From a virus, in IMG/VR virus record IMGVR_UViG_3300038595_000014: DNA of 64,000 bases; one strand, given 5' to 3'. Positions within the stretch are counted from its first letter, which is position 1. Each line of letters begins with the position of its first letter. A program made the translations under genes and the position numbers. The notes below the pieces were generated by a model. That model was not told the origin of the DNA. It ran no database searches and worked only from the letters and a program-made list of their open reading frames with translations. This document shows positions 10,110 to 10,945 of the stretch, piece by piece.

Positions 10110-10945
10110 AGTAGACCAACCGGGGATTGCAGACCGTGCATTTGACGACTAGGCCAAAGAGTGGGAACCGTCCTATCTCCGGCAATCTCTTACTTACTTG
10201 ACGACAGCCGGTTGGTCTTAGTACACGAAACCCGAAGGCTCGGAATCGTCAGGCAAGCCCGACCAGTTGAGCGTGGCGACCGGCGTATAGCCTAGCCCCG
10301 TGCCATTGGCAAAAACCACGCTCATGTGGTGATACAGGTTCGCATATCGGCGGCTTTGATGGCATCTCCGCACTATTGCCGATATAGGGGTGGAAACGCG
10401 CAACCTAAATGCAACCCCGCTCTGTATCACCACAAAAGAGTGGACATCCCGCTTACCAGATACGGGGACACTCTTACGCGGTGCCAGTGCTCGTCGCGGT
10501 GCATTCAAGGTCGGTCCCGGATATAGGTGTCCGCGCCGCCAATTCATCGCAGAAAAGAACACACAAGTTCTGCGATATAGAACGCCGCGAGACAACTGCT
10601 GCACGTTCTAACTGTTGATCGTGGCGTAGTTCCGACTTAACGGCTTTGTGGCCTGACCCACCAGATTTTCGAGTTTGCACCCCGTCACTGGTTTACTACT
10701 CACCGCTTTGGCCACGATCATGAGGTGTGACTGCCTTATGCTAGTATTCGGCAATGACTTACGATTTCCAACTAGCGATTGGTTCTTGTCGTCTATGTCA
10801 CACCACAAAATAGCGGTTTAGCGCAGGGATCGCACACTTATGTGACGGCTTTTGCGACCCTATCCCGGCCAAGGGAAACACCGCTGCGCTATGTCTTGCC
10901 TACCACGCCATTTCAGGTAGCACAATAGGCAAATTTCAAAACCCG
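10110..10945. ncRNA. Candidate large structured non-coding RNA (~840 nt); G-U wobbles favour the + strand
   Basis: No convincing ORF. At least ten nested 7-13 bp helices read by eye, a GAAA tetraloop, and an internally duplicated module with compensatory changes. Confidence 0.7.

What the first reader, a model, noticed from the sequence alone, without database searches (positions are those of the whole stretch)
10110..10945. ~840-nt ORF-free region that folds into a large, ornate RNA: candidate new giant phage ncRNA
Seen in sequence: this otherwise gene-dense genome leaves ~900 nt without a credible ORF, and almost all of it is tiled by nested helices. Perfect stems: 10113-10123/10208-10218 (11 bp), 10268-10276/10316-10324 (9), 10325-10337/10422-10434 (13), 10546-10554/10568-10576 (9), 10578-10584/10603-10609 (7), 10616-10625/10711-10720 (10), 10819-10826/10884-10891 (8). 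Near-perfect stems: 10478-10484/10533-10539 (7, one G-U) and 10721-10731/10797-10807 (11, one mismatch). Several stems (GGATTGC/GCAATCT, ATATCGGCGG/TTGCCGATAT, GCGGTGC/GCGCCGC, AGTGC/GCATT, GTG-GAAA-CGC) work only with G-U pairs on the + strand, so the RNA is probably antisense to the flanking genes. Established: phages carry giant structured RNAs of this size class (GOLLD, ROOL), some forming RNA-only multimers, and OLE RNA works with membrane proteins. Inference: this is a member of such a class or a new one. I cannot match it to a known family from memory.
Basis: partly seen in the sequence, partly recalled or inferred. Interest (0 to 1): 0.92.

Follow-up and report, generated by a model that had tools for sequence, protein, structure and literature searches.

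The report
Phage array of tRNA-linked RNA cassettes
The 0.9-kb gene-free stretch is real and unusually rich in hairpins, but it is not one giant RNA: it is a string of small self-folding modules on the opposite strand to the one proposed, built from a recurring unit (a hairpin followed by a tRNA-like module) that also occurs beside tRNA genes in other marine phages and in Rhodobacterales genomes and matches no Rfam family.

Summary
Window 10020-10948 (929 nt) has no credible ORF. It holds 5 of the 22 perfect inverted repeats of 9 bp or more found in the 64 kb, and these are exactly the listed stems.

- **No known family:** no Rfam family matches, including GOLLD, ROOL, OLE and tRNA (E up to 10).
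- **Mosaic, not one RNA:** six gaps from close relatives (five distinct phages) keep only a 5' element (A) and the 3' promoter (D). They swap 30-225-nt modules in between, and the breakpoints fall at hairpin bases. That excludes one conserved giant architecture.
- **Strand:** G.U pairs in compared helices, T-arm orientation, co-oriented tRNA genes and promoters in homologues all point to the minus strand, sense to the flanking genes.
- **Repeated unit:** the array contains two copies of a bipartite unit: a CCGC..UUUG leader, a hairpin S1 (GGUG/CACC base), a U, then a module S2 closed by GAGCGYGG/CCRCGCUC, followed by A and AC.
- **Selection on structure:** compensatory changes support the helices (3 in 3 helices of one module, P about 0.001).
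- **Spread:** the unit recurs in about 20 unrelated IMG/VR phage contigs and in Roseovarius and Celeribacter genomes, sometimes with a true T-arm or next to tRNA genes.

Transcription and function are untested. This scan reached the same reading earlier on a near-identical locus (e1-3484192).

The parts
10813..10946 (-). Module A. A 134-nt element starting 2 nt after the SPFH stop. It is closed by GCGG/CCGC and contains a 15-bp G.U-rich hairpin (10896-10932) and the TAGCGCAG/CUGCGCUA domain (10819-10891). It is the constant 5' anchor of the array.
   Evidence: Fold. It is present at 90-97% identity in all six relative gaps, and follows a different upstream gene in L009/L010 and in L012.
10806..10819 (-). 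Leader motif AAACCGCUAUUUUG in front of the first S1 hairpin. It overlaps the 3' arm of module A. The family consensus is (A/G)CCGCUUUGAUG.
10721..10807 (-). Unit 1, S1 hairpin module (87 nt). The closing stem is UGUGGUGUGAC/GUCACACCUCA.
   Evidence: The same framing stem encloses other interiors in L003, L012, L151, L193 and L238. S1 arms pair best with their own partner.
10616..10720 (-). Unit 1, S2 module (105 nt). The closing stem is UGAUCGUGGC/GCCACGAUCA, followed by AC (10614-10615). The predicted RNase P-type junction lies between U 10720 and G 10719.
10436..10606 (-). M2. A long hairpin cassette (10476-10606) plus a small hairpin (10436-10475). The frame is constant and the interior is exchangeable.
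   Evidence: L012 has it at 94% identity. L151 keeps both flanks almost unchanged but has a different interior.
10325..10434 (-). Unit 2, S1 module 'H1' (110 nt). A three-way junction: P1 of 13 bp, P2 of 5 bp and P3 of 8 bp.
   Evidence: Compared with L013 there are three compensatory double changes, one in each helix, plus one G.U that exists only on the minus strand. Random placement of the substitutions gives P = 0.001. The module occurs as a discrete piece in runs X5, X6 and X9.
10268..10324 (-). Unit 2, S2 module (57 nt). The closing stem is UGAGCGUGG/CCACGCUCA, followed by AC (10266-10267). The predicted junction lies between U 10324 and G 10323.
   Evidence: Its core is shared with L003, L012 and L151.
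10227..10263 (-). Two small hairpins. The second (10231-10244) is terminator-like, with the tail UUUCGUGU.
   Evidence: L003 has a G.U in this stem on the minus strand only.
10113..10218 (-). S3 hairpin module (106 nt) with an 11-bp closing stem AGACCAACCGG/CCGGUUGGUCU.
   Evidence: Shared with L003 and L012. The homology with L012 begins exactly at the stem base.
10020..10103 (-). Module D. The promoter region and 5' UTR of the 96-aa gene, with an extended -10 element TGATATAGT at 10068-10076. It is the constant 3' anchor of the array.
   Evidence: Read from the sequence. Present in all six relative gaps that reach it (L014 ends before it).
12101..12128 (-). TTGACA-16-TATGTT promoter of the operon encoding the 49-aa protein and SPFH. 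It is the likely source of read-through transcription into the array.
   Evidence: No terminator-like site was found between the SPFH stop and 10244.

Best explanation
The gap is a co-oriented array (window minus strand) of independent, self-folding small-RNA modules. It is not one RNA.

**Layout.** Two constant ends frame exchangeable cargo: module A directly after the upstream stop codon, and the promoter/5' UTR D of the next gene. The core grammar is a bipartite unit present twice here: a CCGC..UUUG leader, a hairpin-closed S1 module (GGUG/CACC at its base), one U, then an S2 module closed by GAGCGYGG/CCRCGCUC and followed by A and AC.

**What is shown.**
- The modular mosaic among relatives.
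- Covarying framing stems with non-homologous interiors.
- The strand.
- The wider family.
- In some family members, S2 has a T-arm stacked on the closing stem and scores near threshold as a full-length tRNA.

**What is inferred.**
- The array is transcribed as a 3' extension of the SPFH operon. Homologues have their own promoters.
- It is cut like a tRNA precursor: RNase P between U-1 and G+1 of each S2, and 3' trimming after the unpaired A. This would release S1 hairpins, tRNA-shaped S2 RNAs and the M2 hairpin.
- The conserved frames would be processing and stability signals, and also the homology arms through which recombination swaps the interiors. The variable interiors would be the functional cargo.

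**Most speculative step.** The cargo may act in the conflict over tRNA between phage and host, for example as decoys or regulators. The phage encodes RNA-repair enzymes, and relatives carry RtcB and tRNA arrays at the same locus.
For: **Non-coding and hairpin-rich.**

**Mosaic.**
- Relatives share A and D but swap modules, with breakpoints at stem bases.
- Their gaps are 404-929 nt, and none had a called gene.

**Structure under selection.**
- H1 has 3 compensatory pairs in 3 helices, with P = 0.001.
- The S2 closing stem covaries at positions 3, 4 and 7 among 7 copies: 59 Watson-Crick, 3 G.U on the sense strand, 1 A.C.
- S1 3' arms pair with their own upstream partner (mean 11.2 of 14) better than with other copies' upstream regions (8.0). 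This held in 24 of 24 copies.
- The M2 frames are conserved in L151 while its interior is replaced.

**Family.**
- The pattern GAGCGCGG..CCGCGCTCAAC found about 28 non-coding instances in about 20 IMG/VR contigs.
- In all 14 that I folded, the module follows a U, and in nearly all a leader motif and an S1 hairpin.
- They lie in ORF-poor gaps of 0.2-1.2 kb.
- Two members lie in Rhodobacterales genomes.

**Link to tRNA.**
- The S2 of L193 and L233 align end to end with tRNA models at 26-27 bits.
- T-arms lie next to the 3' arm in L187, L193 and L233.
- Same-strand tRNA genes lie within 400 nt in L163, L233 and L239.
- In Roseovarius the order is promoter, unit, tRNA-Gly, terminator.
- Relatives carry tRNA arrays and RtcB at this locus.
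- The phage encodes an RNA ligase and HAD_SAK_2.

**Sense-strand promoters.** TTGACA-17-TATAAA lies directly before the leader in L251 and L261.
Against: - No expression data: no RNA run holds the stretch, and the one metatranscriptome holder shows only short contigs.
- The window's own S2 modules have no T-loop and no tRNA-model hit at E up to 10. The tRNA likeness therefore rests on other family members.
- There is no tRNA gene within the window.
- Close relatives are 89-97% identical in shared modules, so covariation within modules rests on few substitutions. Several helices of module A show changes that break predicted pairs.
- Whole-region fold z-scores are modest and equal on both strands.
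- Hairpin-bounded exchange could also reflect a DNA-level process.
- No complementarity to the phage's own genome beyond chance, so no target is known.
Confidence: 0.6

Rival explanations
1. One giant, ornate structured RNA of about 840 nt (GOLLD/ROOL-like or a new class), transcribed from the plus strand, antisense to the flanking genes.
For: Dense nested helices. A few helices gain terminal G.U pairs on the plus strand in this one sequence. The whole-region z-score is -2.2.
Against: No Rfam hit. Relatives lack 50-80% of it, or replace the middle with unrelated modules, while keeping the ends at over 90% identity. The minimum-energy fold breaks into abutting local domains with no supported long-range pairs. 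The strand evidence favours minus.
Confidence: 0.04
2. DNA-level elements. The hairpin-closed modules would be miniature mobile elements or recombination sites (MITE-like terminal inverted repeats, attC-like sites or single-strand hairpin sites), and the array would be an insertion or recombination hot spot without an RNA function.
For: Modules are exchanged exactly at stem bases. Conserved framing stems with unrelated interiors resemble terminal inverted repeats. The 3' motif GCTCAAC happens to fit the integron RYYYAAC consensus (my reading).
Against: The modules are single-copy in the phage genome. The flanks show no target-site duplications. The AAC lies outside the stem and on one side only, unlike attC. 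G.U-tolerant, strand-specific substitutions, T-arms, near-threshold tRNA-model alignments, same-strand tRNA genes, promoters and a terminator around the unit all point to RNA. No recombinase is adjacent.
Confidence: 0.12
3. A decaying tRNA island or recombination scar. The modules would be relics of former tRNA genes and spacers, kept only because the region is a plastic accessory locus.
For: Relatives have real tRNA arrays nearby. Module Y of L003 and L015 holds two T-arm plus acceptor remnants that no tRNA finder accepts. The window's own modules have lost any T-loop.
Against: Compensatory changes maintain the helices. The S1/S2 frames are conserved in unrelated phages and in bacterial genomes. 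All seven variants keep 0.4-0.9 kb of non-coding DNA in otherwise compact genomes.
Confidence: 0.1
4. Purely cis-acting untranslated-region structures: mRNA stabilisers, terminator or antiterminator elements, or RNase barriers for the SPFH operon upstream and the exonuclease operon downstream.
For: Module A always starts at the stop codon of whatever gene lies upstream. D carries the promoter of the next gene. There is a terminator-like hairpin at 10231-10244.
Against: This may hold for A and D but does not explain the 0.3-0.7 kb of interchangeable cargo. It also does not explain the same S1-S2 unit sitting in other contexts, including directly upstream of a chromosomal tRNA-Gly with its own promoter and terminator.
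Confidence: 0.1

Closest known systems
Phage tRNA gene clusters that also encode small stable RNAs, for example the T4 tRNA region with its species 1 and 2 RNAs (from my own knowledge, not checked in a paper here)
   Same: A co-oriented string of tRNA-sized folded RNAs in a phage accessory region. It would be processed from a precursor, sits next to real tRNA genes in relatives, and gains and loses modules between related phages.
   Different: This window's array has no canonical tRNA. The units carry a conserved leader hairpin (S1) and a fixed closing stem with hypervariable interiors. There is no sequence similarity to T4, and processing is untested.
GOLLD (RF01998), ROOL (RF03087) and OLE large ornate RNAs
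   Same: Long ORF-free, helix-rich loci. GOLLD and ROOL occur in phages and often near tRNA genes (own knowledge).
   Different: No covariance-model match at E up to 10. There is no conserved global architecture, and the locus is a mosaic of independent modules.
tRNA-like structures and tRNA-scaffolded RNAs (an acceptor/T-arm minihelix carrying a foreign insert)
   Same: S2 modules are closed by an acceptor-like stem preceded by U and followed by an unpaired A. Some family members have a true T-arm and align end to end with tRNA models at 26-27 bits.
   Different: They fall below Rfam's gathering scores. The window's copies lack the T-loop. No CCA is encoded, and nothing suggests aminoacylation.
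Unnamed candidate structured RNAs predicted in bulk from IMG/VR (Fremin et al. 2023, PMC10690425)
   Same: That catalogue reports many tRNA-like candidate structures in uncultivated phages. Members of this family may be among them.
   Different: The catalogue gives no description of a bipartite unit, of cassette exchange or of arrays. I could not check whether these loci are included.

Membership tests
GOLLD / ROOL / OLE (large ornate RNAs) | Match to the family's Rfam covariance model | tested here: not met
   No hit at gathering score in the whole window. No hit at E up to 10 in 9900-11100 on either strand.
GOLLD / ROOL / OLE (large ornate RNAs) | One conserved multi-domain architecture shared by homologues | tested here: not met
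   Relatives keep only modules A and D and exchange the middle.
Canonical tRNA | Cloverleaf recognised by ARAGORN or by Rfam tRNA models | tested here: not met
   ARAGORN finds no tRNA in the window. No tRNA-clan hit at E up to 10.
Canonical tRNA | T-loop (UUCRANY) on a 4-5-bp stem next to the acceptor 3' strand | tested here: not met
   None in the window's gap on either strand. Present only in module Y of L003 and L015 and in the S2 of L187, L193 and L233.
S1-S2 cassette family (unnamed; called 'phage small-RNA cassette array' in this scan's earlier notes) | A CCGC..UUUG leader followed by a hairpin with a GGUG/CACC base and a covarying distal stem (S1) | tested here: met
   Window 10721-10819 and 10325-10442. 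The same grammar appears in 14 unrelated contigs. Pairing with the copy's own partner beats pairing with other copies in 24 of 24.
S1-S2 cassette family (unnamed; called 'phage small-RNA cassette array' in this scan's earlier notes) | A U, then a module closed by GAGCGYGG/CCRCGCUC, then an unpaired A and AC (S2) | tested here: met
   Window 10616-10720 and 10268-10324. The first copy has a compensated G-C to U-A change at position 4.
S1-S2 cassette family (unnamed; called 'phage small-RNA cassette array' in this scan's earlier notes) | tRNA genes on the same strand close by | tested here: not met
   None in the window. The genome's only tRNA (Arg-CCT) sits in the terminal repeat. The feature is met in relatives and other members: L012, L013, L014, L163, L233, L239 and L280.
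S1-S2 cassette family (unnamed; called 'phage small-RNA cassette array' in this scan's earlier notes) | Transcribed and processed into small RNAs | not testable with these tools
   No RNA run was listed for the stretch. Only contigs of one metatranscriptome touch it.
Integron attC sites / MITE-like repeats | RYYYAAC...GTTRRRY forming the stem ends (attC), or multi-copy terminal inverted repeats with target-site duplications (MITE) | tested here: not met
   The AAC lies outside the stem, on one side only. The flanks are not duplicated. Each module is single-copy in the 81-kb genome.

The most novel reading that the evidence does not exclude
The S1-S2 units and long-hairpin cassettes may be a so far undescribed class of phage RNA 'cassette' system. 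Conserved tRNA-precursor-like frames would recruit host tRNA-processing enzymes and give stability. The hypervariable interiors, swapped between phages by recombination at the frames, would be diversifying effectors, for example decoys or sponges for host tRNA-targeting defence nucleases, or guides or regulators aimed at host RNAs. This would be an RNA counterpart of protein anti-defence islands.
Probability: 0.25. Interest if true: 0.85.

Novelty: new variant of a known kind. Interest (0 to 1): 0.6.

Why it matters
Compact phage genomes rarely keep 0.4-0.9 kb of non-coding DNA. Here a whole phage lineage does, and it fills that space with interchangeable folded modules whose frames recur in unrelated marine phages and in roseobacter genomes next to tRNA genes. 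If the modules are processed like tRNAs, they would form a widespread, unannotated layer of phage small RNAs. Their built-in architecture, a constant scaffold carrying variable cargo, is the kind of arrangement seen in programmable or fast-evolving systems. Such RNAs could bear on phage-host conflicts over tRNA, alongside anticodon nucleases, RNA repair by RtcB or RNA ligase, and phage tRNA arrays. For annotation, the result also warns that 'giant RNA' calls made from helix density alone can really be arrays of small RNAs.

Tried and rejected
- **Rfam:** no hit at gathering score or at E up to 10 on the window. On relatives, only real tRNAs and weak tRNA-Sec-like hits.
- **Phage GenBank collection:** blastn found no match.
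- **Exact-pattern scans:**
  - The S3 stem gave one chance hit inside a coding region.
  - Module A and C cores found nothing in IMG/VR or JGI metagenomes.
  - The leader plus S1 pattern found nothing in GTDB genomes.
  - The junction 16-mer gave 109 hits, about the number expected by chance; only L018 and L056 were real.
- **More distant SPFH relatives:** L002, L004 and L005 have no such gap.
- **Small-ORF reading:** rejected.
- **Integron attC reading of the GCTCAAC motif:** rejected on geometry.
- **Antisense targets within the phage genome:** best match 13 nt, which is chance level.
- **A conserved protein partner next to family members:** none found.
- **RNA-seq evidence:** none was listed.
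- **Strict no-mismatch search for S1 stems:** too stringent and misleading. It was replaced by folding and by the test of own partner against other copies.
- **Automatic alifold counts over all shared modules:** mixed result, 18 pairs kept and 16 broken on the minus strand. Alignment gaps at module ends count as breaks, so I relied on helix-by-helix inspection instead.
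Full report
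**Context.** The window is bases 31-64030 of an 80.8-kb uncultivated phage genome from IMG/VR. It was recovered repeatedly from oyster metagenomes. The finding lies in the early/accessory region. All flanking genes are on the minus strand:
- an SPFH/Band 7 gene (10949-11917) preceded by a 49-aa ORF;
- a 96-aa protein with a signal-peptide-like N-terminus (9729-10019);
- an exonuclease (8493-9668).

The same region encodes an RNA ligase (158-1090) and a HAD_SAK_2 'RNA repair' domain protein (5743-6219).

The gap 10020-10948 is 929 nt. Its longest ORF (128 aa, minus strand) has a non-protein-like translation and no Pfam or PHROG match. Five of the 22 perfect inverted repeats of 9 bp or more (span up to 135) in the 64 kb lie in this 1.45% of the sequence. 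The mean is 0.33 per 929-nt window, and this region has the maximum. Whole-region folding is only moderately better than shuffles, and equally so on both strands (z = -2.2). Single modules give z from -1.9 to -3.2 on the minus strand and from -1.0 to -3.6 on the plus strand, with some bias because I placed the boundaries at stems. No Rfam 15 family matches, even at E = 10, and there is no tRNA.

**Relatives show a mosaic, not one RNA.** I fetched relatives through the neighbouring proteins.
- Two contigs have an identical gap.
- Six gaps from relatives (five distinct phages: L003, L012, L009 with its duplicate L010, L013, and the partial gaps L014 and L015 from one sample) have gaps of 404-908 nt, again without called genes.
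- All-against-all BLAST shows that only two pieces are constant. Module A is about 140 nt and starts at the stop codon of whatever gene lies upstream: SPFH in four gaps, other genes in L009/L010 and L012. Module D is the last 79 nt and carries an extended -10 promoter and the 5' UTR of the 96-aa gene.
- Between A and D, pieces of 30-225 nt are present, absent or replaced, at 89-99% identity where shared.
- Laying Logan contigs from other studies on the stretch shows the same pattern. For example, 10319-10434 occurs as an isolated block with unrelated DNA on both sides, and there is a joint 10434|10808 with 293 other letters in between.
- More distant SPFH relatives have no such gap.
- Local folding splits every variant into abutting hairpin-closed domains. 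The homology breakpoints coincide with domain borders, at gap positions 141/142, 515, 624/625 and 731/733.

A single conserved giant architecture is therefore excluded.

**The strand is minus (sense).**
- *Module A.* Its 15-bp hairpin has five G.U pairs on the minus strand, which would be A.C mismatches on the plus strand. One of them is C-G in the four sequences aligned.
- *GGGUCGCA/UGCGAUCC helix.* It has a G.U in the window and G-C in L003.
- *Other single changes.* The terminator-like stem (L003) and the UAGAACG stem (L012) each gain a minus-strand G.U.
- *H1.* L013 has a G.U that is legal only on the minus strand.
- *S2 closing stems.* Three G.U against one A.C in seven copies.
- *Homologues.* T-arm motifs, tRNA-model alignments, neighbouring tRNA genes, promoters and a terminator are all co-oriented with this strand.

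In the helix ATATCGGC/GCCGAUAU, L013 supports the 8-bp minus-strand version.

**Structure is under selection.** H1 (10325-10434) differs from its L013 copy at 12 positions. Six of them form three compensatory pairs, one in each of three helices of a three-way junction (G-C to A-U twice, C-G to U-A once). One more gives a G.U and one breaks a near-terminal pair. Random placement of 12 substitutions hits both sides of three or more pairs with P = 0.001. An automatic count over all shared modules was mixed, partly because gaps at module ends count as breaks. Module A in particular is too conserved to test.

**The recurring unit.** Reading the variants side by side shows a repeated grammar on the sense strand:
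- a leader, (A/G)CCGC then a U-rich run ending in UUUG;
- a hairpin-closed module S1 whose base is ..GGUG../..CACCNCA;
- one U;
- a module S2 closed by GAGCGYGG/CCRCGCUC;
- an unpaired A and then AC.

The window has two units: S1 10807-10721 with S2 10720-10616, and S1 10434-10325 with S2 10324-10268. They are separated by the long hairpin M2 (10606-10476).

The frames are homologous but the interiors are not, and the frames covary. At S2 position 4 the pairs are U-A, G-C, G.U and A-U. At position 7 they are U-A and C-G. At position 3 they are A-U, G.U and G-C. S1 distal stems differ completely between copies (GUGAC, CAUAUCA, UUC, UUGCAUAUG and others). Each still pairs with its own partner: mean 11.2 of 14 against 8.0 with other copies' upstream regions, and above the mean for other copies in 24 of 24 copies.

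**The family extends beyond this phage lineage.**
- Scanning IMG/VR for the S2 frame gave 153 contigs. Most are chance matches inside genes of GC-rich phages.
- About 28 instances in about 20 contigs are non-coding.
- I folded 14 of them. All have the preceding U, and nearly all have a leader motif of the AGCCGCUUUGAUG type and an S1 hairpin. None of these features were part of the search pattern.
- They sit in ORF-poor gaps of about 0.2-1.2 kb, with no common protein neighbour.
- L151 repeats the window's order (leader, S1, S2, M2). Its M2 keeps both flanks nearly unchanged but has a different interior.
- In L187, L193 and L233 the S2 module has a canonical T-arm stacked on the closing stem. 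The S2 of L193 and L233 align end to end with Rfam tRNA models at 26-27 bits, just below threshold.
- Same-strand tRNA genes lie within 400 nt in L163, L233 and L239.
- A genome scan found two true members, both in Rhodobacterales. In Roseovarius the order is promoter-like site, leader, S1, S2, tRNA-Gly(UCC), terminator. In Celeribacter the unit lies beside a tRNA-Cys fragment.
- In L251 and L261 a TTGACA-17-TATAAA promoter sits immediately before the leader.
- At the window's own locus, relatives carry real tRNA arrays and RtcB: L012 has Leu plus several class-II Ser/Tyr-like genes, L013 has Asn and Gln, and L014 has Ser-like genes followed by RtcB.

**Likely mechanism.**
- *Shown:* a modular, sense-strand array of hairpin-closed elements with selected framing helices, belonging to a tRNA-linked family.
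- *Inferred:* the array is transcribed by read-through from the SPFH operon promoter (12128-12101), since no terminator-like site precedes 10244. The precursor would be cut like a tRNA precursor. The invariant U before G+1 of S2, the acceptor-like stem and the unpaired A after it fit what RNase P and 3'-end processing prefer (established knowledge of bacterial tRNA maturation). The frames would then be processing and stability signals. They would also serve as homology arms through which interiors are exchanged by ordinary recombination.
- *Speculative:* the variable interiors act in the phage-host conflict over tRNA. I found no complementarity to the phage genome beyond chance and have no host sequence to test.

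**Rivals.** A DNA-level mobile or recombination element remains possible (0.12). Against it are the single-copy status, the absence of target duplications, the strand-specific G.U tolerance and the transcription signals around homologues. A decaying tRNA island (0.10) is contradicted by the compensatory changes and by the frames being conserved in unrelated phages. Purely cis-acting UTR structure (0.10) probably applies to A and D but not to the cargo. The giant-RNA reading is at about 0.04.

**Novelty.** Nothing in Rfam 15 matches. My paper searches found only bulk catalogues of unnamed phage candidate RNAs (PMC10690425) and unrelated Hfq-dependent prophage sRNAs. I cannot exclude that members are listed in that catalogue. 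Within this scan the same locus was already analysed on a near-identical genome (e1-3484192), and similar 'constant stem, exchangeable interior' arrays were reported on other phages (e1-167305, e1-452957, e1-5327398). I treated these notes as leads. The mosaic, strand, unit grammar, covariation and family spread reported here were all re-derived from my own calls. I class the finding as a new variant of a known kind: phage tRNA islands with tRNA-like small RNAs.

Noticed in passing
L012:583-1245: A relative carries a dense array of class-II (long variable arm) tRNA genes. ARAGORN finds Leu(UAA). By my reading of the anticodon loops there are also Tyr(GUA)-like and four Ser-like genes (GCU, CGA, GGA, UGA). 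ARAGORN misses these, but the Rfam tRNA-Sec model scores them at 23-49 bits. A phage array made only of class-II tRNAs is unusual.
   Followed up: partly
L014:620-1786; window 158-1090 and 5743-6219: RNA-repair theme. A near-identical relative has an RtcB RNA ligase directly upstream of the 49-aa/SPFH operon. The window's phage itself encodes an RNA ligase (PF09414) and a HAD_SAK_2 'Swiss Army Knife RNA repair' domain protein.
   Followed up: partly
window 11918-12485: A second ORF-poor stretch lies upstream of the SPFH operon, between divergent promoters. It was flagged by another first-reader note (e1-5356214). In relatives this position holds tRNA genes (L013: Asn and Gln; L014: two Ser-like) and RtcB. 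I did not test whether the window's version contains family modules.
   Followed up: no
G000:C1:14-89 and 79305-79380 (the first copy is cut by the window's start): The genome's only tRNA, Arg(CCU), occurs at both ends of the record. This suggests about 1.5 kb of terminal redundancy or an assembly overlap of a circularly permuted genome.
   Followed up: no
window 2791-5646: The class II ribonucleotide reductase gene carries a LAGLIDADG domain in mid-protein, so it probably contains an intein. A near-identical contig (L007) appears to have a different RNR arrangement at this position.
   Followed up: no
L280:6448-7246 (Roseovarius sp. MMSF_3350): In a bacterial chromosome an S1-S2 unit sits 37 nt upstream of tRNA-Gly(UCC). 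A promoter-like site lies before the unit and a strong intrinsic terminator after the tRNA, so the unit looks like part of a tRNA transcription unit.
   Followed up: partly
L279:5481-5600, oriented minus (Celeribacter sp. SCSIO 80788): A truncated tRNA-Cys-like 5' portion (D-arm and GCA anticodon arm) lies about 400 nt upstream of the family unit. It may mark the edge of an integrated element.
   Followed up: no
L003:3624-3784 and L015:533-692: Module Y, which replaces part of the window's cargo in two relatives, holds two T-arm plus acceptor minihelices 45 nt apart (GGUUCGAUUCC and GGUUCGAUCCC). No tRNA finder accepts them. Its 5' part is homologous to the start of the window's M2, with the T-loop replaced.
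   Followed up: partly
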